From: Eledone cirrhosa
Taxonomy: Eukaryota
NCBI GenBank assembly: GCA_964016885.1
Contig: OZ024757.1
Span: 15,500,001-15,564,000 of the forward strand
Direction: 5' to 3'
DNA: 64,000 nt
Positions 6,861-64,000 of the stretch are shown in pieces (position 1 is the first letter of the stretch; each line of letters opens with the position of its first letter). Made by a program: the position numbers and the translations under genes. Under the pieces are notes generated by a model, which did no database searches, was not told where the DNA came from, and saw nothing but the letters and a program-made list of their open reading frames with translations.

Positions 6861-6914
<54 letters not shown>

Positions 6915-7042
6915 CCTAGACTGATATGTTACACATCAATGAAACATGTGTCAGCAGTGTTATGCAATAAATGTTATCCTTCCTCTTCTGGATTGTGGTG
7001 TTTTAAATAATAATTTTGTAAATTTCTATATATACTCTGTAG

Positions 7043-7611: not shown

Positions 7612-7647
7612 TCTTCTGATGAAGGAATAGCGTCCGAAACGTTAAGA
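7612..7647 (+). ncRNA. Minimal hammerhead motif (family H2)
   Basis: TCTT-CTGATGA-A-GGA(ATAGCG)TCC-GAAACGTT-AAGA with a palindromic AACGTT stem III. The downstream ~90 nt is shared with 9169-9290 and 38330-38454. Confidence 0.65.
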
Positions 7648-7969: not shown

Positions 7970-8137
7970 TAATAATTGTTTCTATTTTAGGCACAGGGCC
8001 AGCAATTACCCAGTACATTACTGGTACTTTATTTTATCGACCTCGTAAGGATGAAAGGCAAAGTTAACCTCGGCGGGATTTGAACTCAATGCTTCAAAGC
8101 ATGGTGTCCGACTCTCTACCGATACTGCCAATCCACA
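7970..8137 (-). mobile_element. tRNA-derived Meta-like SINE
   Basis: GGCACAGGGCCAGCAATTACCCAGTACATTACTGGTACTTTATTTTATCGACCTCGTAAGGATGAAAGGCAAAGTTAACCTCGGCGGGATTTGAACTC. Further copies at ~3255-3395(+), 15890-16060, 16500-16650, 16880-17075, 25190-25385(+), 37755-37868, 41370-41510(+), 46135-46238, 52470-52770(+) and 53935-54030. Confidence 0.75.
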
Positions 8138-8175
8138 ATAGTAATTAGCAAAAGATATATACTTTATATCATCTC

Positions 8176-8252
8176 TATTTTATTATATATATTTTCGAGG
8201 ATGTAAAGTTTTATGTATAAGAAAGCAAAACATGTCTTCTTCAGACAAAATA
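8176..8252 (-). ncRNA. Hammerhead-like motif (family H3b)
   Basis: Minus strand TATTTTGT-CTGAAGA-...-GAAA-ATATATA-TA-ATAAAATA with an 8-bp stem I. Paralog at 11085-11159. Confidence 0.55.
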
Positions 8253-11414: not shown

Positions 11415-11459
11415 TTCCTGATGATTTCATACGAATGAAACAGTTTTACTCCTGTAGAA
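11415..11459 (+). ncRNA. Type I hammerhead motif (family H1, copy 2)
   Basis: TTC-CTGATGA-TTTC(ATAC)GAAT-GAAACAG-TTTTACTC-CTGTA-GAA. Differences from 1266-1318 are confined to the loops. Confidence 0.65.
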
Positions 11460-25526: not shown

Positions 25527-28225
25527 GTGCCAGTTGTACTGTTATACTACACTACCACCACTACCACTACACCACCACTGCTACCACACCACTGCTACCA
25601 CCACTACACCACGGTGCCAGTTGTACTGTTATACTACACTACACCACCACCACCACGGTGCCAGTTGTACTGTTATAATACACTACACCACTACCACTAC
25701 ACCACTACACCACCACTACTACACCACTACCACACCACCACGGTGCCAGTTGTACTGTTATACTACACTACACCACTACCACTACACCACTACCACTACA
25801 CCACCACCACTACCACAGTGCCAGTTGTACTGTTATACTACACTACACCACTACCACTACACCACTACACCACCACTACTACTCCACTACCACACCACCA
25901 CCACAGTGCCAGTTGTACTGTTATACTACACTACACCACTACCACTACACCACTAAACCACCACCACTACACCACCACCACCACATCAGTGCCAGTTGTA
26001 CTGTTATACTACACTCCACCACTAAACCACCACCACTACACCACCACCACCACATCAGTGCCAGTTGTACTGTTATACTACACTCCACCACTACCACTAC
26101 ACCACTACCACACCACCACCACTACACCACCACCACCACAGTGCTAGTTGTACTGTTATACTACACTACACCACTACACCACCACCACACCACTACACCA
26201 CCACCACTGTGCCAGTTGTACTGTTATACTACACTACACCACTACCACTACACCACTACACCACCACCACCACAGTGCCAGTTGTACTGTTATACTACAC
26301 TACACCACTACCACTACACCACTACACCACCACTACTACACCACTACCACACCACCACCACGGTGCCAGTTGTACTGTTATACTACACTACACCACTACC
26401 ACTACACCACCACCACTACCACACCACCACCACTACACCACCACCACCACAGTGCCAGTTGTACTGTTATAATACACTACACCATTACCACTACACCACT
26501 ACACCACCCACCACTACTACACCACTACCACACCACCACCACCACCACCACGGTGCCAGTTGTACTGTTATACTACACTACACCACTACCACTACACCAC
26601 CACTACTACACCACCACCACCACAGTGCCAGTTGTACTGTTATACTACACTCCACCACTACACCACCACCACCACATCAGTGCCAGTTGTACTGTTATAC
26701 TACACTCCACCACTACCACTACACCACTACCACACCACCACCACTACACCACCACCACGGTGCCAGTTGTACTGTTATACTACACTACACCACTACACCA
26801 CCACCACACCACTACACCACCACCACAGTGCCAGTTGTACTGTTATACTACACTACACCACTACCACACCACCACCACTACACCACCACCACCACAGTGC
26901 CAGTTGTACTGTTATACTACACTACACCACTACCACACCACCACCACTACACCACCACCACCACAGTGCTAGTTGTACTGTTATACTACACTACACCACT
27001 ACACCACCACCACACCACTACACCACCACCACCGTGCCAGTTGTACTGTTATACTACACTACACCACTACCACTACACCACTACACCACCACCACCACAG
27101 TGCCAGTTGTACTGTTATACTACACTACACCACTACCACTACACCACTACACCACCACTACTACACTACTACCACACCACCACCACCACCACGGTGCCAG
27201 TTGTACTGTTATACTACACTACACCACTACCACTACACCACCACCACTACCACACCACCACCACTACACCACCACCACCACAGTGCCAGTTGTACTGTTA
27301 TAATACACTACACCATTACCACTACACCACTACACCACCCACCACTACTACACCACTACCACACCACCACCACCACCACGGTGCCAGTTGTACTGTTATA
27401 CTACACTACACCACTACCACTACACCACCACCACTACCACACCACCACCACTACACCACCACCACCACAGTGCCAGTTGTACTGTTATAATACACTACAC
27501 CATTACCACTACACCACTACACCACCCACCACTACTACACCACTACCATACCACCACCACGGTGCCAGTTGTACTGTTATACTACACCACTACACCACTA
27601 CCACTACACCACCACTACTACACCACCACCACAGTGCCAGTTGTACTGTTATACTACACTCCACCACTACACCACCACCACCACATCAGTGCCAGTTGTA
27701 CTGTTATACTACACTCCACCACTACCACTACACCACTACCACACCACCACCACTACACCACCACCACGGTGCCAGTTGTACTGTTATACTACACTACACC
27801 ACTACACCACCACCACACCACTACACCACCACCACAGTGCCAGTTGTACTGTTATACTACACTACACCACTACCACACCACCACCACTACACCACCACCA
27901 CCACAGTGCCAGTTGTACTGTTATACTACACTACACCACTACCACTACACCACCACCACACCACCACCACTACCACACCACCACCACTACACCACCACCG
28001 CAGTGCTAGTTGTACTGTTATACTACACTACACCACTACCACTACACCACCACCACACCACCACCACTACCACACCACCACCACACCACCACCACCACAG
28101 TGCCAGTTGTACTGTTATACTACACTACACCACTACCACTACACCACCACTACACCACCACCACACCACCACCACTACCACACCACCACCACTACACCAC
28201 CACCACCGCAGTGCTAGTTGTACTG
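25527..28225. repeat. Anchored minisatellite: conserved GTGCCAGTTGTACTGTTATACTACAC separated by variable (CAC/TAC) spacers
   Basis: Roughly 40 anchors with spacers of variable length and recurring higher-order variants. Confidence 0.9.
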
Positions 28226-29755: not shown

Positions 29756-31702
29756 CAGGGGTCGGTAACCCCCCAGCCCGCTGTCCACATCAGGCCCACC
29801 AACATGTTTCAATCTTAGGCTAAGCGATCCCTGAAAAAGTGCTCTGAATTATTTTGGATTAGAATACCGACTAGAGAACATGTTTAGCCACAAGACTCAC
29901 TTGGCTGAACTCAGACATCGAAATATACCAAAGATCATTTAATGACAAGGCTGCGTCATGACTATCTGGACAATGTTCTACTCCTGTCCTCAACAAATAT
30001 TTCGCCTGATGTAGAGAAGCTATCCAACGACAGGCAAAAACAAGTATCTCATTAAACAATTTACCATTTCTGCCTGTATTTCATTTGTAGTAAGGAATGT
30101 CATTAAAATAATATCACATAAAATTCATTGTTCTTCTTTAAATCCTGGGATTAAGGTAGCCTTCTGGACAGAGCAATCTAAAGCCGAGCAAATTTATTAC
30201 ATTTTGATATCATGGCCTGCCAACGAGACACTGCATGGCTAAGTGGCCCACCAGCGAGACACTGTATAAATATGTGGTCCACAGATGAGACACTGCATGG
30301 CTAAGTGGCCCACCAACGAGACACTGCATGGCTAAGTGGCCCACCAATGAGACACTGCATAGCAATGTGGTCCACAGATGAGACACTGCATAGCAATGTG
30401 GCCCACAGATGAGACACTGCATAACTATGTGGCCCACAGATGAGACACTGCATAACTATGTGGTCCACAGATGAGACACTGCATAGCTAAGTGGTCCACA
30501 GATGAGACACTGCATAGCTATGTGGTCCACAGATGAGACACTGCATAGCAATGTGGCCCACAGATGAGACACTGCATAACTATGTGGTCCACAGATGAGA
30601 CACTGCTAAGCTATGTGGCCCACAGATGAAACACTGCATAGCTAAGTGGTCCACAGATGAGACACTGCATAGCAATGTGGTCCACAGATGAGACACTGCA
30701 TAGCAATGTGGTCCACAGATGAGACACTGCATAACTATGTGGCCCACAGATGAGACACTGCATAGATATGTGGTCCACAGATGAGACACTGCATAGCAAT
30801 GTGGCCCACAGATGAGACACTGCATAACTATGTGGCCCACAAATGAGACACTGCATAACTATGTGGCCCACAGATGAGACACTGCATAACTATGTGGTCC
30901 ACAGTTGAGACACTGCTAAGCTATGTGGCCCACAGATGAAACACTGCATAGCTAAGTGGTCCACAGATGAGACACTGCATAGCAATGTGGCCCACAGATG
31001 AGACACTGCATAGCAATGCGGCCCAAACATGAGACACTGCATAACTATGTGGTCCACAGATGAGACACTGCTAAGCTATGTGGCCCACAGATGAAACACT
31101 GCATAGCTATGTGGTCCACAGATGAGACACTGCATAGCTAAGTGGTCCACAGATGAGACACTGCATAGCAATGTGGCCCACAGATGAAACACTGCATAGC
31201 TATGTGGCCCACAGATGAGACACTGCTAAGCTATGTGGCCCACAGAAGAAACACTGCATAGCTATGTGGTCCACAGATGAGACACTGCATAGCAATGTGG
31301 CCCACAGATGAGACACTGCTAAGCTATGTGGCCCACAGATGAGACACTGCTAAGCTATGTGGCCCACAGATGAGACACTGCATAGCAATGTGGCCCACAG
31401 ATGAGACACTGCTAAGCTATGTGGCCCACAGATGAGACACTGCATAGCAATGTGGCCCACAGATGAGACACTGCTAAGCTATGTGGCCCACAGATGAAAC
31501 ACTGCATAGCTATGTGGTCCACAGATGAGACACTGCATAGCAATGTGGCCCACAGATGAGACACTGCTAAGCTATGTGGCCCACAGATGAGACACTGCTA
31601 AGCTATGTGGCCCACAGATGAGACACTGCATAGCAATGTGGCCCACAGATGAAACACTGCATAGCTATGTGGCCTGCACACCCCAAAAGATTGCTGACCC
31701 TG
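29756..31702 (+). mobile_element. Internally deleted hAT (Charlie/GTF2IRD2-like) DNA transposon containing a satellite array
   Basis: Left end CAGGGGTCGGTAACC, right end GATTGCTGACCCTG. 29921-30055 encodes KYTKDHLMTRLRHDYLDNVLLLSSTNISPDVEKLSNDRQKQVSH*. Flanks CTCTATAT/CTCTTTAA. Confidence 0.75.
30211..31675. repeat. 31-bp tandem satellite GAGACACTGCATAGCAATGTGGCCCACAGAT (30-bp variants)
   Basis: About 47 highly similar tandem units. Confidence 0.95.
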
Positions 31703-45579: not shown

Positions 45580-47410
45580 AATAATTATTATATAAAATTA
45601 TGTCAGAAGATTTTAATTTAAATAAGAACACATTAAAATGGTTGGGTATTTATTTTCATTGAACCTGAGCTTATTTTGCCTGTATTGGTATTAAAAACCG
45701 TTAATGAAGAATTCGAAGAGATTTACCAAAATTATTAATTATTTCATTAGTTAGATCATAACTTATATGTTTCTTACATAACATTTTGTTGAAAGATTCA
45801 AAATTGAACCCTTTCATTACCATATATCTTATTACAAATGCATGCACTCCCGTACTTATGGTTGTTATATAACATTATGTTGGAAGATTTTTATTTAAAT
45901 AGGAACCCTTTAAAACAGGTTGTTTTCTTTCATAAAACCAGAGTTAGGTTTGGCTGGGTTGGTATAAAAAGATTTAATGAAGAACTTTGAGTGATTTACT
46001 AGAATTATTAATTAGTTCATTACTAAATCTGTGATTTAACATATGGTCCTTATGTAAAACTATGTTGGGAAATTTAAAATGTAACCCTTTTATTACCATG
46101 TTTCTAATTATCTACAATATATTTCAATTAATTAATTGTTTCTACTTTTGGCACAAGGCCAGCAATTACCCAGAACATTACTGGTACTTTATTTTATCGA
46201 CCCCGTAAGGATGAAAGGCAAAGTTGACCTCGGCGGGATAATGATGAATTTGCAGTGATATATTAAAATTTCATTACGAACAATGCAGTGCTCCAGTATG
46301 GCCTCAAACTGACAGCTGCAACACATGATAGAGTAACAGAGTAACATGCTATTTGTAACATGACATAGCAAGGATTTTATATATAAAATTATGTTGGAAG
46401 GTTTTGATTTAAATAAGAACCCTTTAAAATTGGTGATTTTGTTTCATAGAAGCTGACCTGGGTTTGTATCAAAAGAGTTAATGAAGAATTTTGAAGGATT
46501 TACTAAAATTTCCTGACTAATATTGTATGTGTAATATAATATAGCAACGGTTTTATACATAAAATTATGTTGGAAGGTTTTGATTAAACTAAGAACCCTT
46601 TAAAATGGGCGGCTTTGTTTCAAAGAAGCAAATCTGGGTTGGTATCAAAAGGGTCAATGAAGAAATTTGAAGATCTTTACTAAAATTATCAGTTATGTCA
46701 TTATTACTATTAAGATAGTATTCGTAACAAATTTTTCTTATATAAAATTAATATTTTTAGCTTGTCTATGCGTTTTTTGTCTTCCCCTATTTTGTATCTA
46801 TCTTGTTTTTGTTTCTTAACTGTAAGGGGTACCAGATATCTCTCCTAGTCTATCATTGATTACTAGCTCTATACAGACGTTTAGATTGGTTAAGTATATA
46901 AATAAATAACAAATAGAAACCGTTTAAAATGAAGGATTTTCTTTCATAGAAGCAGATGTGGTTTTGACAAGGTTTATTTTAATGAAGAATTTGGAGGTAT
47001 TTACTAAAATTACCAATTATGTCATTATTGAAATAGAAATAGAAGCTTTGCCATAATATTTGACCAAATAATATAGTCTAATATTGGAGCATATAAACCC
47101 ACTGAATGGATAAAATGGGTATCAGCACACAAGTTCATATATAGAATTAATATTTTTATCTTATTTAAGCTTCTTTTGTCTTACCCTATTTTTTCTCTAT
47201 CTGTCAATCTTGTTTTGGTTTTTTAACTGTAAGAGATACCAGATACCTCTCCTAGTCTGTCATTGCTTACTAGCTCTATACAGACGTTGAGATTGGTTAA
47301 GTAAATAAATAAATAATAAATAAATAAATAAATACAAAACCCTTAAAAAATTAGGGATTTCGTTTGATAGAAACAGAGCCGGTTTGTGGGTGGGTTGGCA
47401 TCAAAACGTG
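45580..47410. repeat. Diverged AT-rich tandem array related to MITE-like sequence
   Basis: Recurring AATTATGTTGGAAGGTTTTGATTTAAATAAGAACCCTTTAAAAT...AAAAGAGTTAATGAAGAATTT...TTTACTAAAATT; 46745-46920 duplicates 47145-47345. Confidence 0.65.
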
Positions 47411-47626
47411 ATGTATTTCTAACAAGGTCTACTACAGCTACGACAGCTGAATTTGATCTTGTATAAGAGAGAAATCAGAAACATTATCATATATTAGTTT
47501 TAGTAGCATCACCAGCAGCACCCGCAGCAGTAGGTGTAGCAGTGATGGCAGCAGCAGCAGCAGTAGCTGCAGTAGTAACAACAAGAGTAGTAGTTGTAAT
47601 AATAGTGATAGTACTAGCATTTAATG

Positions 47627-47660
<34 letters not shown>

Positions 47661-48153
47661 CTGCAGTAGTAACAACAAGAGTAGTAGTTGTAGTAATAGT
47701 GATAGTACTAGCATTTCATTGTAGTAGTAGTAGTAGTAGTAGTAATGGTGGTGTAACTGGTGGTGGTGGTGGTAGCTATAATGGTGGTGTAACTAGTGGT
47801 GGTAGTAGTAGTTATGGTGGTAGTAGTTATGGTGGTAGTAGTAGTAGTAATGTTGGTAATAGTAATAGTAGTTACGCTGGTAGTAGTTGTAGAGGTAGTG
47901 GTAGTAGTAGTAGTGGTGATGGTAGTAGTGACGGTAGTAGTAGTGATGGTAGTAGTGGTGATGGTAGTAGTAGTGGTGGTAGTAGTAGTGGTGATAGTAG
48001 TAGTGGTGATAGTAGTAGTGGTGATAGTAGTAGTGGTGATAGTAGTAGTGATGGTAGTAGTAGTGGTGGTAGTAGTAGTGGTGATAAGTAGCAATAGCAA
48101 GTGAAATTTCCACTGTAAAAAGTGACGGAGAGAACACACATATATATATATAT

Positions 48154-48208
<55 letters not shown>

Positions 48209-48291
48209 CACATATATATATATATATACACATATATATATATATATACACATATATATATATATATATACACATATATATATATATACAC

Positions 48292-48322
<31 letters not shown>

Positions 48323-48590
48323 CACATATATATATATACACACATATATATATATACACATATATATATATACACATATATATATATACACACATATATA
48401 TATACACATATATATATATACACATATATATATATATACACATATATATATATACATATACACATATATATATATATATATACATATACACATATATATA
48501 TATACATATACACATATATATATATACATATACACATATATATATATATACATATACACATATATATATATATACATATACATATACACA

Positions 48591-48622
<32 letters not shown>

Positions 48623-48860
48623 CACATACATATATATATAAATACACACATATATATATATATATACACACATATATATATATACAAATATACACATATA
48701 TATATATATTTATACACATATATATATATATATAATATATATATACAAATATATATATATATACACACACACACACATATATATATATACAAATATATAT
48801 ATACAAATATACACATATATATATATATATATAAATATATATATACAAATATATATATAT

Positions 48861-48896
<36 letters not shown>

Positions 48897-48897
48897 G

Positions 48898-48989
<92 letters not shown>

Positions 48990-49061
48990 TATAGTTCACT
49001 CCTGACACTGTAGCTTCGCATCAGAGAACTGCTGTCATGTGCTGTGAGTGGCAGTGGCTGG

Positions 49062-51148
49062 TCATAACCATCACCATCACCATCATCATCACCACAACCA
49101 TCACTATTATCATCATCATCACCATCACCACCACCACCATCATCACCATCACCATCACCACAACCATCACCACCACCACCATCATCACCATCACCACAAC
49201 CATCACTATTATCATCACCATCACCACAACCATAACCATCACCATCACCACAACCATCACCACAACCATCACCGTCACCATCACCATCACCATCACCACA
49301 ACCATCACCGTCACCACAACCATCACCACAACCATCACCACAACCATCACTATTATCATCATCATCACCATCACCACCACCACCATCATCACCATCACCA
49401 TCACCACAACCATCACCATCACCATCACCATCACCACCATCATCACCATCACCATCACCACAACCATCACTATTATCATCACCATCACCACAACCATAAC
49501 CATCACCACAACCATCACCATCACCACAACCATCACCATCACCATCACCATCACTATTATCATCACCATCACCATCACCACAACCATCACTATTATCATC
49601 ACCACCACCATCACCACCATCACCATCACCACAACCATCACTATTATCCTCACTATCACCACAACCATCAATATCATCATCATCATCATCCTCATCATCC
49701 CCAATACCATCTTCATTACCATCACCACCACCAACACCACAATCACCACCAACACCACCACAACTACCACCACCACCACCACCACAATCACCACCACCAA
49801 CACCACCACAACTACCACCACCACCACCACCACAATCACCACCACCAACACCACCACAACTACCACCACCACCACCACCACAATCACCATCAACACCACC
49901 ACCACAACTACCACCACCACCAACACCACCACAACTACCACCACAACCACCACCACAATCACCATCAACACCACCACCACAACTACCACCACCACCACAA
50001 TCACCATCAACACCACCACCACAACTACCACCACCACCAACACCACCACAACTACCACCACCACCACCACCACCACAATCACCACCACCAACACCACCAC
50101 AACTACCACCACCACCACCACCACAATCACCATCAACACCACCACCACAACTACCACCACCACCAACACCACCACAACTACCACCACCACCACCACCACA
50201 ATCACCATCAACACCACCACCACAACTACCACCACCACCAACACCACCACAACTACCACCACCACCACCACCACCACCACAATCACCATCAACACCACCA
50301 CCACAACTACCACCACCACCAACACCACCACAACTACCACCACCACCACCACCACAATCACCACCAACACCACCACCACCACAACTACCACCACCACACA
50401 CACCACCACAATCACCAACAACACCACCACCACAATCACCAACAACACCACCACCACAGTCACCACCAACACCACCACCACCACAATCACCATCGACACC
50501 ACCACCACCACCACCACAATCACCACCAACGCCACCACCACAACTACCACCAACACCACCACAATCACCACCACAATTACCACCACCACCACCACAATCA
50601 CCACCACCACCACCACCACAATCACCACCACCACCACCACCACAACTACCACCAACACCACCACAACTACCACCACCACCACCACAATCACCACCACAAT
50701 CACCACTACCACCACCACCACAACTACCACCACCACCACCACAATCACCACCACCACCGCCGCCACCACAAACACCACCACCACCACCACAATCACCACC
50801 AACACCACCACAATCACCACCACCACCACAATCACCATCAACACCACAACTACCACCACCACCAACACAATCACCACCAACACCACAATCACCATCAACA
50901 CCACCACAATCACCACCAACACCACCACCACAACTACCACCACCACCACAATCACCACCAACACCACCACCACCACCATCACCACCAACACAACACCACC
51001 ACCACAATCACCACCACCACCACCACTACAATCACCATCAACACCACCACAACTACCACCAACACCACCACAATCACCAACACCACCACCACCACCACCA
51101 CCACCACCAAAACGACCACCACAATCACCACCACCACCACCACTACAA
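49062..51148. repeat. (CAT)n grading into (CAC)n trinucleotide array with higher-order units
   Basis: Direct inspection. Confidence 0.95.
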
Positions 51149-51418
51149 TATTTCACATTAATATATAATGAAGATTTACTGCAAGCCACAGTGAATATCA
51201 ATAGAATATTGACAGTCACTGAGAATATATTTCCTAATAGTGATAATGATATCACTATATATGTATAGGTGTAGGTATATATGTGTGTGTGTGGGTATAT
51301 ATGTGTGTGTGTAGGTGTGTGTGTATGTGTGTAGGTATATATAAATATATACCTACACATACACACACACATATTTGCATTGCTTTATTGTGCTACAATA
51401 AAACTCACCTCCTATATT

Positions 51419-51755
51419 ATCATCATTTCATCATTTCATTTTACGTCCGCTTTTTTCCCTGCTTGCAAGGGTGGGACGGGAACTGATTCTGGCTTGATTT
51501 CTACAGCTGGATGCCCTTCCTAACACCAACCTCATTTACAGTGAGTGCTGGGTGCTTTATTACCGTGGCACCTCCACGACCACTTTGCAGTGGAATGATA
51601 TGGACCCCAGTCCCTATCATCTCATTTCTACAGCTGAGTAAACTGGAGCAATGTGAAATAAAGTGTCTTGCTCAAGGAAACAACAGATCACCTGGTCTGA
51701 GAATTGAACTCACAACCTTTCGATTGCAAGGCCAATGCTCTAACCACTAAGCCAT
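51419..51755 (-). mobile_element. Chimeric SINE copy 7
   Basis: Near-identical to the other copies. Confidence 0.9.
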
Positions 51756-51768
51756 TATATATATATAT

Positions 51769-52431
51769 GTAAAAAATTAGAAATAAGAGGGATCAGATGT
51801 TGTTTACTCGAGAGAAGGCTACGTTGGTACGGACACGTGATGCGCATGAAAGTCGATAGCTGTATAACAAAGTGCAGGGCAATAAAGATAGACGGTAGCC
51901 ACGGAATAGGCCGACCTAGAAAATCCTGGGACGAGCTGATAAACTCCGACCTCACACACTTACACCTCTCCAAGACAATGTCACTGGACCGAGACCTTTG
52001 GCGGTACTCAGTAATAGAGAAGACCCGCCTTACCTAAATACAAAGTAAAACCTACTACAGTCAGTAGGCATCTCTATCAAAACACACCCCCGTCCCACTA
52101 CCCCCACCCCATCCACACCGCCCCTTTCAATGTAAAGTTATGTTGGTGCCACAACATCCAGGCCGAAACAAATGAGATCGTGTAGGTGTCACGACAAAAA
52201 AACACACAGTCCACGCTGTAATGTGACCGTGTAGGCAACACGGTAAAAACCTCCCAGCCCCACACTGTAAATGTGGTTGGTGTTAGGAAGGGCATCCAGC
52301 CGTAGAAAACCCGCCAGACAGTCCTATGCGAGCAAGACAATCACTCTTGCCTCAAGTGGGAATACCCCCGTCCAAACCCATGCAAGCGTGGAACACGGAC
52401 GTTAAACGTTGATGATGATGATGATGATGAT
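51769..52431 (+). mobile_element. RTE subfamily A 3' end
   Basis: Encodes KLEIRGIRCCLLERRLRWYGHVMRMK...KTRLT*, followed by the V-like UTR and (GAT)n. Confidence 0.9.
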
Positions 52432-53029
52432 ATATATACGTGTGTGTGTAGGTATATATATATATTTTTGTCCAAATCCCTCCATGGTTAGCTTTACCTC
52501 TCATCCTTACGGAGTCAATAAAATAAAGTACCAGTAACACATGTATGTAATATTGTTATCATCATGTTAAGTGTGGGAGATAGCCAGAATCGTTAGAGCA
52601 ATGGTCAAAATGTTCTGCCTCATTTGTTCCATATCCAATCAATTTAACTTTACTTTTCATCCTTCTAGGGTACAATAAAGTGAAGTACCAGTTATTTACT
52701 GAGGTTGATTTAATCGACTTCCACTCCCCATAAAATTGCTGGCCTTGTGCCTCAATTAGAAATCCTTATCATAGTGATAATGATATCTGTATGTGTGGTG
52801 AGAATGATACTTCTTGTCATGTGGCTTAGTGGTGAGGGTACAGGGGTCACAATTGCAAGGTTATGAGTTCAATTCCCAGGCTGAGTGGTGCAGTGTGACC
52901 TTGAGCAAGATACTTCATTTCACTTGGCTCCAGTTCACTCAATTGGAAAAAAAAAAAGTTGCACCTCTGATTTAAAGGGCCAGACTTGTCACACTGAATC
53001 TCCCTGAGAAATATGTTGCTGGTACCTAC

Positions 53030-53752
53030 AACCTACTTCATGGTCGAGTGGTTGGCCCCTAAACCAGCTCCCCCACCAGACCCTGGTCTGGTGAGGAGGG
53101 TAAGAGGAACCCCAACAACACAAAAATCACGAGCTGTTAAAAGGGTAGATGAACTCCTCAGATAATGGCCATTCACCCCAACTATGGGTTAAATAGCCTC
53201 ACCAATCCACAATCTGCCAAGCATGGTGAGTACAGCTACACACCTGACATGCCAAACCCATAGAGAAAGCAGTGGAGGTCAACCATGGAGGGTTTCTTCC
53301 AACAGGTGTGAGAATGGATTGGATTAGATATATATCTAGACTGTGTTAATTGGACGACAAGGTCACTTCAGAAGCTCTCTACATTCCAGAACCACATCAT
53401 GAGACTTATGACTGGCAAGCGGCTCAGCGACCGTATCTGTATCAGTGAGCTGCTCAACATTACTAGACTTAGACCAATTATATAAATTGTCAAGTCAAGA
53501 GTACTCAGACTTATATGGTCATATAAAAAGATCAACTCGTGGTGTGAGTAGGTTATGCCTGGAAGGAAGGTTGGCTGGTAAGAGAAGCTGAGGCCGGCAG
53601 CCAAAATGATGGCTTGATAATGTCAACTTATGGACTGGACTTGATCTTTGCACTTTAAACTCTGCTGTTGATCGAACTTTGTGGAGAAAAATATCTCATG
53701 TTGATGCGCATTCTGAAACTGGCAGAGTTTTGTGTCAAAGTAGTAAGTAGTA
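53030..53752 (+). mobile_element. Old, probably internally deleted RTE derivative
   Basis: The 3' part encodes decayed LRLYGHIKR...CLEGRLAGKRS*GRQPK*WLDNV...WTGL...DRTLWR and ends in an AAGTAGT-type tail. Confidence 0.6.
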
Positions 53753-54080
53753 TGTACCTGTAACTCTTGACGGAGTTTTAGGAATGCCATAATGACATAT
53801 GGTACGTCATGGGTATCTTAAACCTGGTGAAACCAATCCACTCTCCAGGTCTGAATGAAGCCTATTTCTCCTAGAGAAAGAAATAGAGAGGTGATAGACA
53901 GAAAGTGATATAGAGCTGAAGAAGAATCTTCCCAACCAATATTGAACTGGTACTTTCATATTTTCGAGGCTGAAAATATGAAAGGCAAAGCTAACTTCAT
54001 CAGGATTTGAACTTAGCACAGTGACTCAGAACAAATATCCAATATCCTACTTGCTGCCAAATATATATATATATATATTT

Positions 54081-54144
54081 ATTCGTTCTGACGACTGAAG
54101 ACAGATATAAATATCTGTCTTCAAGAAACCACTGGTAAATGAAT
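54081..54144 (+). ncRNA. Type I hammerhead ribozyme (family H4), most complete copy
   Basis: Stem I ATTCGTT/AATGAAT, core CTGACGA, 12-bp stem II TGAAGACAGATA(TAAA)TATCTGTCTTCA, GAAA, stem III ACC(ACT)GGT, GUA triplet with predicted cleavage after 54137. Confidence 0.8.
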
Positions 54145-54184
54145 TAATTATCTTATGTTGTTTATTACATAACTATATATATGT

Positions 54185-54955
54185 GTAGAGGACCTGCGCA
54201 GACTAGAAAGGAACAAAGCATGCATGTTCCATTGGATGTGTAACAGTAATATACGTGAACGGCAAAGCATAAATGAACTAAGTGAGAAATTAGGAATAAG
54301 AGGGATCAGATGCTGTTTACTCGAGAGAAGACTACATTGGTATGGCCACGTGATGCGCATGAAAGACGACAGCTGTATAAAAAAGTGCAGGGTGATCAAA
54401 ATTGATGGTAGTTATGGAGTAGGTAGACCCAGAAAAACCTGGGACGATCTGATAAATTCTGACCTTACACACTTACACCTCTCTAAGACAATGTCACTGG
54501 ACCGAGATCTTTGGCGCTACGCAGTAATACAGAAGACCCGCCTTGCCTATGTACAAAGCGAAACCTACAGTCAGTAGGCACCTCTTAACCAAATATACAC
54601 CCAAATCCACTACCCCTACCCTCCCACTCCCACCAACACCACCCTCTCTCTGTAAGGTTGGTACCACAACATCCAGTCCAAATAAATGAGATAATGAGAT
54701 TGAGATCGTGTAGGTGTCACGACAACAAAAAACACACAGTCCACGTTGTAATGTGGCCGTGTAGGTAACATGGTAAAAAGTTCCCAGTTCCACACTGTAA
54801 ATGTGGTTGGTGTTAGGAAGGGCATCCAGCCGTAGAAAACCTGCCAGATAGTCCTATATGAGCGAGAGACAGTCTCCCAACCAAACTTGCCTCAAGTGGG
54901 ACAACTCCCGTCTAACCCATGCTAGCGTGGAAGATGGACGTTAAACGATAATGAT

Positions 54956-54987
<32 letters not shown>
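54185..54987 (+). mobile_element. RTE subfamily A 3' end
   Basis: ORF 54224-54577 (RRLHWYGHVMR...GRPRKTW), followed by the V-like UTR and (GAT)n. Confidence 0.9.
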
Positions 54988-55394
54988 AAAGGGTAGGGGT
55001 AAAGATCCCTTCGGTCATGAATGATCATGGGATTTGCACCAAGAAAGTTACCCTTCAAGACACGAGACCAGTGGTTGCCCATGCAAACCAGCTTCCCCTC
55101 TCCATGCCACCAATGTTGTCCAAGGCTGACACAGCTTGGCACTTGTGATGTCACAACTCATTTCCACAGCTGAGTAAACTGGAGAAATGTGAAATAAAGA
55201 GTCTTGCTCAAGGACATAACACATCACCTGGTCCGAGAATCAAACTCACAACCTCCAGATTGCAAGCTCAATGCGTTAACCATTAAGCCATGTGCCTTCA
55301 TGTATATATCATGTATAATGATCATGTGGCTCTAGGAGAGAATTAGAGCTATATAGATTAAGAGTTGCTAGTTAGACTAGTAAGAGCATATTCA

Positions 55395-55511
55395 GCAAAG
55401 TACTCAATACTTGGGAAATAAGAGTATATGCATATTTAAAAGTTAGTGTCAAACAGCTGAGTTCATGCTGTTGAAATGGTAGGAGCTCAGCTGTTGGACA
55501 CTAACTTTTAA

Positions 55512-55514
<3 letters not shown>
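55395..55514 (-). mobile_element. Diverged F1 snap-back element
   Basis: AAAGTACTCAATACTTGGG, then a hairpin at 55433-55514 (TATTTAAAAGTTAGTGTC...GACACTAACTTTTAAATA). A single-arm relic lies at ~55912-55975. Confidence 0.7.
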
Positions 55515-55553
<39 letters not shown>

Positions 55554-55557
<4 letters not shown>

Positions 55558-55895
55558 TCATCATCATCATCATTTTACGTCCACTTTTCCCTGCTTGCAA
55601 GGGTGGGACGGGAACTGATTCTGGCTTGATTTCTACAGCTGGATGCCCTTCCTAACACCAACCTCATTTACAGTGAGTGCTGGGTGCTTTTTTGCCGTGG
55701 CACCTCCACGACCACTTTACAGTGGAATGATAGGGACCCCAGTCCCTATCATCTCATTTCTACAGCTGAGTAAACTGGAGCAATGTGAAATAAAGTGTCT
55801 TGCTCAAGGAAACAACACATCACCCGGTCTGAGAATTGAACTCACAACCTTTCGATTGCAAGGCCAATGCTCTAACCACTAAGCCATGTGCCTCC
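55554..55895 (-). mobile_element. Chimeric SINE copy 8
   Basis: Near-identical to the other copies. Confidence 0.9.
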
Positions 55896-56329
55896 TATAT
55901 ATATTTATATATGTGAAAAGATTCAGGAACCCGACGGCTGAGCTCTGGCCATTTCGACAACTAGATCTGAACCAGAGAACTCGATACTCCAAGTATCAAC
56001 ACGGTCACCTGACCCAACTTGCCTCAAACGGGACAACCCGTCTAACCCATGCGAGCGTGAAAAAATAGACATGAAATGATGATGATGAAGATGATATATA
56101 TACATACATACTACACATATAATGTATGGGTTAGTGTCAAGAGGGTACATAACTGAAGAAAATCTGCCTCAAGAGGTCTCGCCCATGCAAGTATGGAAAA
56201 GCGGAATGTTAAAATTATGATGAACACACAACCATCATCCTTATCATTTAATGTCTATATTTTCATGTTGACATGGGTTGGGCAGGTAGTGAAGGGCAAT
56301 ACTTAATCAGAGGCATTGTATCTCTAGAT

Positions 56330-56526
56330 CAAGTATGTCAAATTGAGGGTCACCCGAGGTCCACATGGGTCACATATGTGTTGTCATAATTTCACACACA
56401 ACTAATTTTTTAAATTTTATATTACAAAGATAAAACATGCTTGCACTGTAAAAACCCTAGTGCAAGCCGCAGGTATGCTTGTAAAGGGCCGCATGCATCC
56501 CACAGGCTGCATGTTTGACATGCCTG
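56330..56526. mobile_element. hAT-type MITE
   Basis: Ends CAAGTATGTCAAA / TTTGACATGCCTG; 8-bp flanks CTCTAGAT/CTCAAGAT. Confidence 0.7.
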
Positions 56527-56549
56527 CTCAAGATGGAATTACATACATT

Positions 56550-57185
56550 CCAGTTTTGGCTTGATTTCTACAACTGGATGACCTTCCTTGCTTTACAGAG
56601 TGTACTGGGTACAATTTATGGTACCAGTACTAAGGAAGCTATCATGTCCTTAATACAACTGAACAGCCCATTCGAATTTTTGTTTGATATGGTTTCTACA
56701 TCTGGATGCCCTTCCTAATGCCAACCATTTTACAGAGTGTACTGGGTGCATTTTATCATGGTACTAATACTAAGTAAGCTATCATGTCCTTAATACAACT
56801 GAACAGCCCATTCAAGTTTTTGTTTGACATGGTTTTTACATCTGGGTGCCTTTCCTAATGCCAACCAATTTACAGAGTGTACTGGGTGCATTTTATCATG
56901 GTACCAGTACTAAGGAATCTATCATGTCCTTAATACAACTGAACAACCCATTCGAGATTTTGTTTGACATGGTTTTTACATCTGGGTGCCCTTCCTAATG
57001 CCAACTAATTTACAGAGTGTACTGGGTGCATTTTATCATGGTATCAGTACTAAGGAATCTATCATGTCCTTAATACAACTGAACAGCCCATTCAAGTTTT
57101 TGTTTGACATGGTTTTTACATCTGGGTACCCTTCCTAATGCCAACAATTTTACAGTGTACTGGGTCCATTTTATCATGGTACCAG
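56550..57185 (-). repeat. 140-bp tandem array of V-domain-like units
   Basis: Units at 56621, 56761, 56901, 57041 and ~57179, each containing TTCTACATCTGGATGCCCTTCCTAATGCCAAC. Confidence 0.85.
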
Positions 57186-58048
57186 AAGTAGGGATTTATT
57201 TTTACAATCATATATGCATATGTCTGTGTGTTTATAATGGATTAATTAGAGAGAAATAGACAGGCCCTATGTCTTCTTTGCCTGGTGGAGTGATGGGAGA
57301 AAAGGACCATTACAAATGCTTCTCAAACTAGGAAAATATCAAAGACTGGTTCAGAATATTTGCATCGAAAGATTTGTACTGTTAGATCTAAAATGTCCTT
57401 AAAATAAACTTTGTAGTGTAGATAGTGTCCTCAAGGTCTATAGATAAACTGTCAGCATGATCTACAGTAAAGCTTTATACAAAATGTCAGGAGGCTTCTT
57501 TAGTTGTGCCATAACCATGACAGCCTCCCTAGTTTTAGTAATCTACTCAATAAATGCACCAAGTACATTCTGTAAAGTTTTGGGAAATGAGAAGGCTAGC
57601 AAGCCATAGAAACCGTGCCAAACAAAGGTCAGAAGGCCCCTTTAATTGTGACATAGACATGACAGCCTGCCTAGTGTTGGTGATCTACATGATAAACATA
57701 CCATGTACACTCTGTAATGTGGTTGGGGGAAGACCCTTCAGCTGTGTCAAAGGCATGATGACTTCCATAGTGTAGGTGGTCTCCATGATGAAATACACTT
57801 GTAAGAGCATAAGAACATATGTAAGCAAGGTGCAGGCCCCACCATACCATCTGAGCATTTGGTAGAAGTGAGACGCAGGCCACATGGCACATTTTAGAGG
57901 TCAGTAGCTCCTCATGAGCACTGACTCAATTTGTGATGACCCATCCAATCCTTGCTAGCAGAGAAAACGATTATTAAATGATGATGGTGATGATGATGAT
58001 GATGATAATGGCATATAGCATATTTACATACATACACACAAACATACA

Positions 58049-58394
58049 TATCATCATCATCGTCATCATCATTTTACGTCCGCTTTTCCCTGCTTGCAAG
58101 GGTGGGACGGGAACTGATTCTGGCTTGATTTCTACAGCTGGATGCCCTTCCTAACACCAACCTCATTTACAGTGAGTGCTGGGTACTTTTTTGCCGTGGC
58201 ACCTCCACGACCACTTTACAGTGGAATGATAGGGACCCCAATCCCTATCATCTCATTTCTACAGCTGAGTAAACTGGAGCAATGTGAAATAAAGTGTCTT
58301 GCTCAAGGACACAACACATCACCCGGTCTGAGAATTGAACTCACAACCTTTCGATTGCAAGGCCAATGCTCTAACCATTAAGCCATGTGCCTCC
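58049..58394 (-). mobile_element. Chimeric SINE copy 9
   Basis: Near-identical to the other copies. Confidence 0.9.
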
Positions 58395-59489
58395 ATATAT
58401 ACTACAATTACACACTCACACACAGATACAGACATCCACATACATATACTCATAAATACACGCACACATACATACACACATATACATACATACAATTACG
58501 CACTCACGCAGATACAAACATACACCTACAGACGCTCACAAATACACACACACATATACATAAGCACACATATACATACATACAATTACACTCACATACA
58601 GATAGACATACACCTACAGATGCTCACAAATACACACACACATACATAAGCACACATATACATACATACAATTACACTCACATACAGATAGACATACACC
58701 TACAGACGCTCACAAATACACACACACACACATATACATAAGCACACATATACATACATACAATTACACTCACATACAGAGACAGACATACACATACAAA
58801 TGCTCACAAATACACATACATAAACACACACAAACACACATATATACAATTATACACACATGGATACAAAGACATTCACATACAAACACTCACAGACACA
58901 CACACACACACACAAACATAGATACAACTAAAGAGGTCTCTGTGTGGTCATTCAACCTGCTAGAAATAACAACCAAATACCTTTCAAACAACACCCTACT
59001 GTTTTAAATAAGGAATTACTTTAACTAATGTACTTCCTTACCTACTAGATAGTCATGGTTGGATTAACTTAAATAGGGCAGATATATTACAGCATACATA
59101 CAACTAAAACAACAACAGACAAACACACACACATATATATCGTCATCATCGTTTTTACGTCTGCTTTTCTATATATATATATATGTACACATATATATGT
59201 GTGTCTATATATGTACACATATATATATATGTGTATATATACATATATATATATATATATGTGTATATATACATATATATATGTGTGTATATATACATAT
59301 ATATATATATGTGTATATATACATATATATATGTGTGTATATATACATATATATATATATATATGTTTATATATTATACACACACATATATATATGTATA
59401 AAGCATAATACAGTTTATACAACAACGTTATTATTTGGAAACACAAATATACACTCACAAAAATAGAAGTTTTAAAAATATATAATAAT

Positions 59490-60095
59490 GATAATAATTG
59501 TTTTTACTTTAGGCACAAGGCCAGCAATTTGGGGGTAGGAGTAAGATCATTAAATAGACCCCAGTGTATTTCTGGTGCTTTATTTTATCGACCCTGTAAG
59601 GTTAAAAGGCAAAGCTAACCTTGGTGGGTTTTGAACTCATAATAATAATGGTTTCTTATACAAGGCCAGCAATTTCGGGGGAGGGAGAAAGTCGATTAAA
59701 TAGACCCCACTTCGTGAATGATACTTTATTTTATCGACCCCCGCAAGGATGAAAGGCAAAGTTAACCTCAGCAGGATTAGAACTCAGAACGTAAAGGGCC
59801 ATAACTCTAAGCTGCATAGCATGGTGTCTGACGCTCTACCGATACTTCCAAACCACTGCGCTTAATAATAATTGTTTCTACATTAGGCACAAGGCCAGCA
59901 ATTACCCAGTGCATTACTGGTACTTTATTTTATCGACCCCGTAAGGATGAAAGGCAAAGTCATCCTTAATAATAATGGTTTCTAATTTAGGCACAAGGCC
60001 AACAATTTTCCCAGGAAAGGGCAAATCGATTAAATCAACCACAGAGCATTACTGGGGCTTTATTTTATCGACCCCGTAAGGATGAAAAGCAAAAG
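59490..60095 (-). mobile_element. Four tandem Meta-like SINE copies
   Basis: Repeated (TAA)n-TTGTTTCTA...GGCACAAGGCCAGCAATT...TTTATCGACCCCGTAAGGATGAAAGGCAAAG. Confidence 0.8.
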
Positions 60096-60479
60096 GAGAA
60101 TACGTATTTTTTAATGTATACATATATTAGTTCTTTAATGTCTTTTAACCATTCTTTTTGTGTATATGTGTATCTACGTGTTTGCACTGACTAATCTGCC
60201 TTGGGCACGAATTTCAATCAACTAATCTTATTGGAGTTATTTCCCTTGCCTGTTTTGCTAATATTTTGAAACCTACTAGAGGGAGTCCAGTTATGGCCAT
60301 CACTGTATAGTGGAGGAGCTGTTTCAATACTGGGTTCTCAACAGGCACCAGGATAAAATTATGAGAAAAATCGTTAGCCCATTAAATTTGGTTTTAATAT
60401 GTAGTAGAGAACCCCTTCTCGAGAATAAGGGAGACAATCCCAAATTCTGAATTTCTCAGGGCAAGAAACTTTGAAATAT

Positions 60480-60966
60480 GCATATGTATAATGGGTCCAT
60501 GTGTAATGTGTGCATGTGCAATGTGTAATGTGTGCATATGTAATGTATGTATGTGTGTATGTGTAATGTGTGCATGTGTAATGTGTGCATGTGTAATGTG
60601 TGCATGTGTAATGTATGCATGTGTAATGTGTGCATGTGTAATGTGTGCATGTCTAATGTGTGTATGTGTAATGCGTGTATGTGTAATGTGTGCATGTGTA
60701 ATGTGTGCATGTGTAATGTGTGTGTAATGTGTGTATGTGTAATGTGTGTGTAATGTATGTATGTGTAATGTGTGTGTAATGTATGTATGTGTAATGTGCA
60801 TATGTGTGATGTGTGTATATGTAATGTGTGTATATGTAATGTGTGTATATGTAATGTGTGTGTATGTTTAATGTGTGTGTAATGTGTGTATGTGTAATGT
60901 GTGTATGTGTAATGTGTGTGTGTGTAATGTGTGTGTAATGTGTGTGTAATGTGTGTGTAATGTGCA
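60480..60966. repeat. 15-bp minisatellite (GTGTAATGTGTGCAT)n and variants
   Basis: Direct inspection. Confidence 0.9.
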
Positions 60967-61770
60967 TGGGACTTGAGCTGTAAGCTAATTATCGAAAAAA
61001 CCTAAACACTTTAAAGGAGTTTGTTACAAATGGAGATGGCACATTGTTTACCCTGGTGATATGACATAAAAACACACAATCCACCCTGTTAGATGGCTGT
61101 TTTGGGGTCATGATGAAAAGCACCCAGACCACCGTGTTACATAATTGTTTCGATGCTACAATAAAAAACACGCAGCCCACCTGATTAAATGGTCGTTTTG
61201 GTGCCATGATAAAAAGCATCCAGTCAGCGTTTTAATGTGGCTTGTATTAAGAAGGGCATCAACCCATAAAAACTAAACTAAAAACAGATCCATATGAGCA
61301 AGACATGGTCACCTGACCTGAGTAAGACATGGTCACCTGACCTAGCAAGACATAGTCACCTGACCTGATTTGTTACATAACGTGGCAACCTCTCTAACTC
61401 ATGTAAGTGTGCTAAATTGATGGTAAGTGATGATAATGACCTGTGTTTGTGTATACAGATGAGTCTAAAGAAACATGGTTTAGTTGACCTCCTTATCAAG
61501 TTGCTTCTCACAGGAGGTTTCTAGAGTGTTTTTAAACCATTTCTGCTTCTACCGCTTTGAAATAAAATTGTTTATTATAAAGTGTTTATATATAAAAGCT
61601 TTCCATGATAATTTCTTGTTACAACCTTTGTTAAGTTATGTTCCAAACAACAGCATAATAATGAGAAAGTTATTTTACTAAATCCCTCCAAAATTTTGAT
61701 TACTAAAAAAAAAAAAAAAAAATATTTGAAACATATAGACAATGTCTTTCTTTAGAGGTTTCTTGATGTT

Positions 61771-62323
61771 TTAACCCTTTAGCATTCAAACCGACTGTAT
61801 TTGGCCAGATGTCTCTCACCTCTTTCTGTTAAAACTGGCCATACTTATACTAACTGCTCATACTTATGTTAAAGTATTGTTCTCAAAATAAATAATATCA
61901 AAATCTCATAGATTCAATATTATGTGAGATAATTATATGAAGTAAAACCTATACCATGAAAATATGATAGTAAATATAGAGTAATATAGAGGCTAAAGGG
62001 TTAATGATAGGATCTCCAATAATTGAGCCACAACACTATTATGATAAGTTTAACGCCTCAACCCCTGGGCCGCATGTCTGAATGTATATGAATCTTGTAT
62101 CACATTTGGTGATGAGTATTAACCATTTAGCATTTACATTACTCTATATTTACTATTGTATTTTTGTGGTAAAGACTTTATCTCACTCACATAATATAGA
62201 ATCTATGAGATTTTGAGAACAATACCTTAACATAAGTATGAGTGGCTGGTTACAGCCAGTTTTAACAGAAAGAGGTGAGAGAATTCTGGCCGGATATGGT
62301 CAGTTTAAATGTTAAAGGGTTAA
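61771..62323. mobile_element. Composite foldback of two inverted piggyBac-type MITE units around a shared spacer
   Basis: Units 61775-61999 and 62123-62319 face each other, all boundaries are TTAA, and the spacer is the reverse complement of ~29192-29302. Confidence 0.8.
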
Positions 62324-62754
62324 AGTTATGCAACCAAGAGGGCTGCCTATTTTGGGAATTATATTGGCTGAATATTCCACAATCACATGTATTCTTAACA
62401 CAACACTCACACAGAATTAGTCACATAGTCTGACAAGCCTGAATCTTTGAATTACAGTTACTATAAATGGCTGAGTATTCTACAGGCATGTGTACCTTGA
62501 CTGAAATTCCCTGCCAATATCAGCAAAATATACTGGGTGACCAGACTGGCCATTTGCTGGACTACAACACAGTTTTCATCAACCAAATATCACTTACAAG
62601 GTAGGGCTGAAACTGAAGGCATAGTAAAAGACAAAAGATGCCATAATGTGGGTGAGAACTCCTGTTCTATGACTGTGAAGTAAAGAAACTTCTTGACCAC
62701 ATGGCAATGCTTGCACATATATATGTATATATGCATATATATACACAAACACAC

Positions 62755-62818
<64 letters not shown>

Positions 62819-62832
62819 TATATAAACATATA

Positions 62833-62870
<38 letters not shown>

Positions 62871-62882
62871 TATATGTATATA

Positions 62883-62913
<31 letters not shown>

Positions 62914-63039
62914 GCATAAACATATATATATGTATATATGCATAAACATATATATATATATACATATATGTATACATCCATACATACATAAACATATATA
63001 TATATACATACAAACACATGTACATGCAAGTGCTTTTGT

Positions 63040-64000
63040 GTATGCATAGATACATGGATGCATAGAAGCATGTATGTATATGTGTATCTGTATGCATACA
63101 TGTATGCATATATGTGTGTATGTGTCTGTATGTATGTATGCATGCATGTATGTATGTGTGTGTGTCTTTATGTATGTGTGTTTATATGAATGTATCTATG
63201 TATGCATGTATATGTGTATCTGTATGCATACATGTATGCATGTATGTGTGTATGTGTCTGTATGTATGCATGCATGTATGTATGTATGTATGTGTATGTG
63301 TCTTTATATATGTCTGTTTATATGAATATATCTATGTATGCATGTATATGTATATCTGTGTGCATGTATGTATATGTGTATCTGTATGCATACATGTATG
63401 CATCTATGTGTGTATGTGTCTGTATGTATGCATGCATGTATGTATGTGTGTGTATGTGTCTTTATGTATGTGTGTTTATATGAATATATCTATGTATGCA
63501 TGTATATGTATATCTGTGTGCATGTATGTATATGTGTATCTGTATGCATACATGTATGCATGTATGTGTGTATGTGCCTGTATGTATGCATGCATGTATG
63601 TATGTATGTGTATGTGTCTTTATGTATGTGTGTTTATATGAATGTATCTATGTATGCATGTATATCTGTGTGTGTATGGTAAGTGTATAAAAGTATGTGT
63701 GTGTATGTGTCTATGTATGTGTGTTTATATGACTGTATCTATGTATGCATGTATATGTATATGTGTGTGTGTATGGTAAGTGTATAAAAGTATGTGTGTG
63801 TATGTGTCTATGTATGTGTGTTTATATGAATGTATCTATGTATGCATGTATATGTATATCTGTGTGTGTATGGTAAGTGTATAAAAGTATGTGTGTATGT
63901 GTCTATGTATGTGTGTTTATATGAATGTATCTATGTATGCATGTATATGTATATCTGTGTGTGTATGGTAAGTGTATAAAAGTATGTGTGTGTATGTGTC
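63040..64000. repeat. (TG/TATG)-derived satellite with ~90-100-bp higher-order units
   Basis: GGTAAGTGTATAAAAG recurs at ~63678, 63775, 63872 and 63967. Confidence 0.9.

What the first reader, a model, noticed from the sequence alone, without database searches (positions are those of the whole stretch)
54081..54144. Near-complete hammerhead with a perfect 12-bp stem II
Seen: all conserved core nucleotides (CUGACGA, GAAA, GUA) and all three stems (7, 12 and 3 bp) within a ~95-bp island between two TA tracts. The only defect is a C.A pair at the base of stem II. This is the best single candidate for an active ribozyme.
Basis: partly seen in the sequence, partly recalled or inferred. Interest (0 to 1): 0.75.

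Follow-up and report, generated by a model that had tools for sequence, protein, structure and literature searches.

The report
Hydra-clade Penelope retrotransposon hammerhead end
This is a 100-base leftover end of a common jumping gene of a known kind; it carries a real hammerhead self-cutting RNA motif whose "defect" is shared by its whole family, and on its own it would likely cut poorly or not at all.

Summary
The motif is there as described and is not chance (0 hits in 100 shuffles). It is not a unique ribozyme. It is the 3' end (54076-54175) of a 5'-truncated Penelope-like element (PLE) inserted in (TA)n. The genome holds 6 exact copies of the 64-nt motif, 245 exact matches to its right half, and 6038 matches to a sister form. 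One relative is a complete repeat-ORF-repeat element; the ORF has the Hydra-clade marks (RWK, DKT, CxCX5C, GIY-YIG-type end). The C.A is family-wide, not a lesion: the base after A9 is C, U or A by subfamily, always opposite A. In the published Hydra table 15 of 25 families also have a mismatch there. Stem II covaries between subfamilies. Stem III is a palindrome, which predicts dimer-dependent and probably slow or protein-assisted cleavage. Copy 5' ends do not pile up at the cleavage site. This copy is solo; no cleavage or expression was shown. The scan noted Hydra-clade hammerheads before, on other DNA of this genome. Verdict: new member of a known kind.

The parts
54076..54175 (+). 5'-truncated solo 3' end (pLTR end) of a Hydra-clade Penelope-like element; stops at the first of the family's two 3' ends and has no tail
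   Evidence: BLAST to both repeats of the full element L149 (89-90%); 53 scored genome matches at 90-100%
54081..54087 (+). stem I, 5' strand
   Evidence: sequence; 6 of the 7 pairs recovered by the alignment fold
54088..54094 (+). core CUGACGA (C3-A9)
   Evidence: sequence; conserved across subfamilies except N7
54095..54095 (+). base after A9 (C here; U or A in other subfamilies), opposite A54124
54096..54123 (+). stem II, 12 bp with a 4-nt loop; starts U-A, G-C
   Evidence: pair probabilities 0.77-1.0; 3 pairs change on both sides between subfamilies
54124..54128 (+). A opposite C54095, then core GAAA (G12-A15.1)
   Evidence: sequence; invariant in 19 of 19 aligned representatives
54128..54136 (+). 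stem III: 4-bp palindrome around one base; 3-bp hairpin as monomer, predicted 8-bp duplex as dimer
   Evidence: same layout as Hydra-1_Obim and 16 of 25 Hydra families (my count)
54135..54137 (+). GUA triplet; predicted cleavage 3' of A54137
   Evidence: hammerhead consensus (established knowledge); cleavage not tested
54138..54144 (+). stem I, 3' strand
   Evidence: sequence
54145..54175 (+). conserved terminal segment up to the common 3' end; likely the first reverse-transcription start
   Evidence: 18 of the 30 best loci stop at or near this point in a microsatellite, 12 of 30 go on into a tail; role inferred from PMC11167929
54061..54078 (.). (TA)n tract, left half of the likely target
   Evidence: sequence
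54174..54182 (.). short (TA)n tract, right half of the likely target
   Evidence: sequence

Best explanation
The motif is the type I hammerhead at the 3' end of a Hydra-clade Penelope-like retrotransposon, and this copy is a 100-bp 5'-truncated end in a TA microsatellite that is likely inert here. Shown: hundreds of near-identical ends; two fixed 3' ends about 68 nt apart; inverted partner copies; a complete element with the hammerhead about 215 nt before the start codon and again 4.8 kb downstream; Hydra-clade protein motifs. Inferred: the element's endonuclease nicked (TA)n, its reverse transcriptase started about 36 nt downstream of the cleavage site on uncut RNA and stopped 5 nt past stem I. 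Predicted: in the parent RNA two hammerheads pair through the palindromic stem III and cleave slowly, perhaps only with the element's protein bound; the mismatch under A9/G12 is tolerated because the U-A and G-C pairs behind it hold stem II.
For: Copy number and anatomy: (an inverted partner within 700 bp in 16 of 30 loci, two pairs counted from both sides). Link to the ORF: L094 and L100, L138, full element L149 and near-full L147, L148, L152. Clade marks: RWK, DKT, YRDDG, CxCX5C, CxxC and CxH around the endonuclease end against PMC8557442 section 11 and supplement. Structure kept between subfamilies: 93.4% of cells paired, 19 cells changed on both sides, 0 of 500 shuffles as high; slid controls 31-53% paired. 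Dimer: double-hammerhead model -44.8 kcal/mol against -37.0 for two monomer MFE folds. Precedent for weak, dimer- or protein-dependent cleavage: PMC4209133, PMC11167929. Uncut RNA as template: 152 copies start in the cleavage-site window against 110 in an upstream control window.
Against: No cleavage or expression data. Pfam and PDB sequence searches gave no RT or GIY-YIG hit for the ORF pieces (0 of 5 and 0 of 1), so the protein call rests on motifs and by-eye comparison with the published alignment. No tree was built. All three ORFs translated whole carry stops or frameshifts, and endonuclease regions are 86% alike at the median, so an active master was not found. C.A is in none of the 25 published Hydra hammerheads. 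No copy with a canonical G-C junction and the same stem III was found. The covariation set was 19 sequences that I picked from 122 to represent subfamilies; the 3 covarying pairs may be 3 events, the count of such pairs does not beat the shuffles (341 of 500), and hairpin-templated repair could mimic selection. Core positions decay at about the same rate as the 3' flank in inserted copies (2.2% vs 2.4%; sample chosen by similarity).
Confidence: 0.8

Rival explanations
1. Same origin, but the family's hammerhead no longer cleaves at all; the fold is kept only as a binding or positioning structure for the element's protein, or rides along in the pLTR.
For: No G10.1-C11.1 pair in any subfamily seen; no excess of copy 5' ends at the cleavage site; in PAc, cleavage mutants do not affect insertion in vitro (PMC11167929).
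Against: All catalytic-core bases and the GUH triplet are invariant across subfamilies whose stem II and loop differ; natural hammerheads with a U10.1.U11.1 mismatch are described (PMC3088659, passages); a cut 3' piece of about 36 nt may simply not be copied.
Confidence: 0.13
2. The window copy is an efficient stand-alone ribozyme that cuts a host transcript running through the locus.
For: Intact core, three stems, 12-bp stem II; the hammerhead fold lies within 0.6 kcal/mol of the MFE for the 64-mer.
Against: 3-bp stem III with a 3-nt loop; stem I is lost in longer context; no second family hammerhead in 64 kb; the island ends where ordinary truncated copies end, and five other loci are identical; no host exon was evident among ORFs of 110 aa or more in 46000-64000.
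Confidence: 0.05
3. A non-coding element: a tandem retrozyme or a hairpin DNA (MITE-like) element rather than the end of a coding PLE.
For: Many copies are short, non-coding and in inverted pairs.
Against: Inverted arms are of unequal length and differ by a one-sided tail; the same end flanks an RT/endonuclease ORF in direct repeat; no head-to-tail arrays were seen in the fetched loci.
Confidence: 0.015
4. Chance match in AT-rich DNA.
For: No Rfam hammerhead match.
Against: 0 hits in 100 shuffles; hundreds to thousands of homologous copies, with 0 matches for the reversed control patterns.
Confidence: 0.005

Closest known systems
Hydra clade of C-terminal EN+ Penelope-like elements, esp. Hydra-1_Obim (Craig et al. 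2021, PMC8557442; abstract passages, section 11, supplement part 2 and search passages read)
   Same: RWK, DKT and CxCX5C motifs, C-terminal endonuclease, (TA)n target, sense-strand type I hammerhead near the 3' end; stem III ACCA-N-UGGU as in Hydra-1_Obim; mismatch at 10.1.11.1 (15 of 25 families) followed by U-A (20 of 25), by my count from File S2.
   Different: A separate family: 24 of the first 44 residues identical to Hydra-1_Obim (counted by eye). C.A rather than U.U, U.C, G.U or G-C at the base of stem II; stem II 12 bp rather than 3-7; unit about 4.8 kb with a long microsatellite-rich 3' region rather than under 3 kb; pLTRs present, whereas Hydra-1_Obim is listed with none.
Metazoan PLE hammerheads (min-HHRs; Cervera and de la Pena 2014, PMC4209133; parts 1-2 of 4 read)
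   Same: Type I, in pLTRs, mostly found as solo truncated copies or opposite-strand pairs 100-700 bp apart, long stem II, palindromic stem III, predicted dimer.
   Different: Their consensus has one extra base after A9 and then a conserved G10.1-C11.1; here there is one unpaired base on each side and the first firm pair is U-A.
PAc, Poseidon element of Anolis (Frangieh et al. 2024, PMC11167929; parts 1-2 of 4 read)
   Same: Two fixed 3' ends that define a tail; AT-rich target; hammerhead shortly upstream of the ends.
   Different: Different clade; tail about 68 nt here against 30-40; hammerhead about 215 nt before the ATG here, overlapping it in PAc.
Animal non-LTR retrozymes (PMC7229834, search listing only; bioRxiv 10.64898/2026.07.22.740005, part 1 of 5 read)
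   Same: Type I hammerhead with PLE affinity.
   Different: Those are non-coding tandem arrays; this is the end of a coding element and is solo.

Membership tests
Type I hammerhead ribozyme | Core CUGANGA, GAAA and UH with three helices, stem I open | tested here: met
Type I hammerhead ribozyme | Usual G10.1-C11.1 closing pair of stem II (consensus, with known natural exceptions) | tested here: not met
   C.A, U-A or A.A in 122 of 122 parsed copies; exceptions in PMC3088659 and in 18 of 25 Hydra families
Type I hammerhead ribozyme | Structure supported by covariation | tested here: met
   3 stem II pairs change on both sides; none in stems I and III; picked set of 19
Type I hammerhead ribozyme | Site-specific self-cleavage | not testable with these tools
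   needs in vitro assay; genomic footprint test negative
Type I hammerhead ribozyme | Match to an Rfam hammerhead model | tested here: not met
   no hammerhead family among the matches up to E 10
Penelope-like element (EN+) | Single ORF with RT and C-terminal GIY-YIG-type endonuclease flanked by pLTRs | tested here: met
   L149: repeat 3103-3505, ATG 3614, second hammerhead 8124-8221; domain names rest on motifs, Pfam and PDB blank
Penelope-like element (EN+) | 5' truncation, inverted 5' partner, one-sided tail | tested here: met
Hydra clade | RWK motif near the N terminus | tested here: met
   RMRWKA in L124, L138, L139, L147, L148
Hydra clade | DKG changed to DKT | tested here: met
   FSDKTKN in L116, L121, L122, L124
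Hydra clade | CxCX5C linker | tested here: met
   CSCRKPEEC in most endonuclease-bearing copies shown
Hydra clade | No CCHH motif in the endonuclease; CxxC and CxH near the end | tested here: inconclusive
   CSLC and CPH are present; absence of CCHH judged by eye only
Hydra clade | Insertion into (TA)n | tested here: met
Hydra clade | Generally short (under 3 kb) | tested here: not met
   4.8 kb between hammerheads in L149, partly from microsatellites and nested repeats; the paper gives this as a tendency, not a rule
Hydra clade | Placement in the clade on an RT tree | not tested
   reference proteins were seen only as supplement text; no tree built
Non-LTR retrozyme | Non-coding head-to-tail array of hammerhead units | tested here: not met
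   solo copy in the window; coding parent

The most novel reading that the evidence does not exclude
The hammerhead of this lineage works as a switch at the head of the mRNA: its GUA cleavage triplet doubles as a 5' splice site (G|GUAAAU), and splicing to an AG about 25 nt before the start codon would remove a leader with several upstream AUGs. RNA that splices would be translated; RNA that stays unspliced and uncut would be the template for insertion; dimer cleavage would destroy both. It would also define a hammerhead subclass in which position 10.1.11.1 is a free mismatch (C.A, A.A or U-A) with activity kept.
Probability: 0.1. Interest if true: 0.55.

Novelty: new member of a known kind. 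Interest (0 to 1): 0.2.

Why it matters
As a single locus it matters little: it is one of hundreds of decaying ends. The family has some use. It is a Hydra-clade PLE with a complete repeat-ORF-repeat locus and both 3' ends mapped, and its subfamilies form a natural series at the base of stem II (U-A, C.A, A.A) with compensatory changes behind it. That series could test whether PLE hammerheads need G10.1-C11.1 and whether they cleave as dimers or with protein help, a question the papers read here leave open. I found no report of cleavage tests on Hydra-clade hammerheads in five searches; the 2017 dimer paper (PMC5785218) was not held, and other supplements were not read.

Tried and rejected
Rfam: no match at gathering score in the window and no hammerhead family up to E 10 around the locus. 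A second core register starting at the CUGAAGA inside stem II was considered and dropped: it is part of the stem II arm and is not kept in the sister subfamilies. A canonical sister form (extra base, G...C, same stem III) gave 0 matches; copies with odd bases after A9 proved to be decayed ones. Two neighbours first taken for the parent were not linked: the ORF in L096 and the segment shared by L032, L052 and L113. Cleavage footprint: 152 vs 110 copies, a 1.4-fold difference that TA microhomology can explain; none of the 30 inspected cleavage-window copies ran on into the ORF leader, and several were inversion junctions or small deletions; the planned downstream control window was not run. RNA: no RNA holder listed, which says nothing on expression. 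Contigs of three runs of one sample did not span the locus, so an empty allele could not be tested. Pfam and PDB searches of ORF pieces were blank; the protein atlas did not answer. An acceptor AG inside the tail was dropped because most copies have CGG there.

Full report
Observation. The motif is present at the stated coordinates: 7-bp stem I, CUGACGA, a C opposite an A, 12-bp stem II, GAAA, 3-bp stem III, GUA and the 3' strand of stem I. It folds better than 200 shuffles (z -4.1). A type I descriptor found 4 motifs in the window and none in 100 dinucleotide shuffles. Rfam did not match it. As a single strand the hammerhead fold is 5% of the ensemble, and stem I is lost in longer context.

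It is a repeat end. The own genome (3.0 Gb, TA-rich; octopus-like is my inference from the closest published family) gave 1809 first-look candidates, of which 40 were scored, yielding 53 matches at 90-100% identity. Exact counts: 6 for the 64-nt motif, 175 for a 35-place left pattern, 245 for a right pattern, with 0 for reversed controls. Of the 30 best loci, 18 stop at or near a common point in a microsatellite and 12 continue into a tail of about 68 nt; 16 have an inverted partner within 700 bp (two pairs counted from both sides). Left ends vary. This is the anatomy described for PLE insertions in PMC8557442. The window copy spans 54076-54175, has no tail and no partner, and is the only family hammerhead in the window.

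The parent. Walking upstream led through a long microsatellite-rich region to a coding region. In L094 an inverted hammerhead arm abuts a copy that begins in the RT thumb region; in L100 the inverted tail abuts the sequence just after the endonuclease. A search with the endonuclease region gave 1550 candidates, 40 scored. L149 is complete: repeat with hammerhead and tail at 3343-3505, ATG at 3614, ORF, 3' region, second hammerhead at 8124-8221. The ORF shows RWK, DKT, YRDDG, CSCRKPEEC, a GIY-YIG-type region and terminal CxxC and CxH, the marks given for the Hydra clade. By eye it follows Hydra-1_Obim in the supplement, with 24 of the first 44 residues identical, so it is a separate family. Pfam and PDB searches were blank and no tree was built. 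The three ORFs translated whole are broken; endonuclease regions are 86% alike at the median, 95.5% at most (435 hits).

The C.A. Among the first 100 listed left-pattern matches, the base after A9 is C in 97, U in 2 and A in 1; among the first 100 right-pattern matches the base before GAAA is A in 100 (my count). A sister form with a different stem II has 6038 exact matches and mostly U-A at this place. Over 122 parsed copies from all fetched loci the pair is C.A 83, U-A 35, A.A 4; the next pair is U-A in 116 and the third G-C or G.U in 115 (the parser required an intact core). A canonical extra-base-plus-G-C form with this stem III had 0 matches. In the published table of 25 Hydra families I count U.U 14, U.C 1, G.U 2, G-C 7 and one bulged A-U; 20 have U-A next; 16 have a 4-bp palindrome around one base as stem III. 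The window motif fits this pattern; C.A itself is not listed there.

Structure under selection. On 19 sequences picked from the 122 to represent subfamilies, RNAalifold returned the whole hammerhead fold. For the named structure 93.4% of cells pair and 19 cells change on both sides, above all 500 shuffles; slid controls pair 31-53%. Only 3 pairs covary, all in stem II, that count does not beat the shuffles, and related sequences inflate the cell counts. Forms with a mismatch between the two paired states exist (L096, L203, L224), which fits stepwise repair, though direction was not established.

How it likely works. Stem III reads the same on both strands around a central C; two RNAs would form an 8-bp duplex. 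A double-hammerhead model scores -44.8 kcal/mol against -37.0 for two monomers. Metazoan PLE hammerheads showed no monomer activity and low dimer activity (PMC4209133); the PAc hammerhead cleaved only with protein, and uncut RNA was the insertion template, with two internal start sites defining the tail (PMC11167929). If cut RNA were copied here, 5' ends should pile up after GUA. They do not: 152 copies in that window against 110 in an upstream control, and inspected cases include inversion junctions and deletions. So the window copy was most likely made from uncut RNA, starting at the first end and stopping 5 nt past stem I. These steps are inferred; cleavage and expression were not shown.

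Earlier notes. My PLE reading was recorded before any look-up and the Hydra assignment. Those notes report Hydra-clade hammerheads elsewhere in this genome and a hairpin just beyond each end. In this family a hairpin starts about 7 nt beyond the first end (-8.2 kcal/mol in L149, -4.9 in L147, absent from the truncated L146 and L153 windows); beyond the second end folding is weak and variable (-1.6 to -5.9). That is partial support only, and the window copy lacks both.

Verdict. A real hammerhead motif, explained as the end of a new family of a known clade. Interest 0.2. The most novel open reading, a splice site sharing the cleavage triplet, rests on sequence alone and gets 0.1.

Noticed in passing
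window 7616-7643 (+): Minimal PLE-type hammerhead with the canonical extra base and G-C pair, palindromic ACGU stem III and 4-bp stem I; a similar sequence lies in L113 near 6675.
   Followed up: partly
window 22991 (-) and 34950 (-); related cores at 8244 (-) and 11093 (+): Hammerhead motifs with 8-bp stem I and AT-rich palindromic stem III; another family or families.
   Followed up: no
window 1273-1300 and 11418-11445 (+): Two related cores with a U.U at the base of a short stem II, as in many Hydra-clade hammerheads; they did not pass my stem I cut-off.
   Followed up: no
window 54183-54955 (+): 5'-truncated 3' end of a LINE-like element right after the TA tract; related copies at 5520-6255 and 51766-52431. 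The LINE label is recalled, not tested.
   Followed up: no
window 53946-54015: Fragment of an abundant short repeat that contains a local inverted repeat at about 53953-53984.
   Followed up: no
L149:3400-3614; L147, L146, L152, L153 leaders: About 215-nt leader between the cleavage site and the ATG with several upstream ATGs, a donor-like GTAAAT at the cleavage site and two AGs shortly before the ATG; a 9-nt word of the tail recurs near the ATG.
   Followed up: partly
L210, L224, L233, L243 (near 1500): More distant subfamilies share the same 3' end but have a different stem II and a stem III with a UUU centre.
   Followed up: no
L032:150-660, L052:530-1170, L113:1800-2320: A different repeat with a very short hammerhead-like core about 330 nt before a (TA)n end, in an inverted pair in L113.
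   Followed up: no
L096 minus strand 4400-6950; L086:127-1200; L093: Other PLE-like ORFs nearby: a second Hydra-like family, a DKS-bearing RT that may be Naiad-type (label recalled), and a further GIY-YIG-bearing ORF.
   Followed up: no
window 30225-31674 and 25642-28206: A 31-bp tandem array of about 47 copies, and a long CAC-rich compound array with a recurring 20-nt spacer.
   Followed up: no
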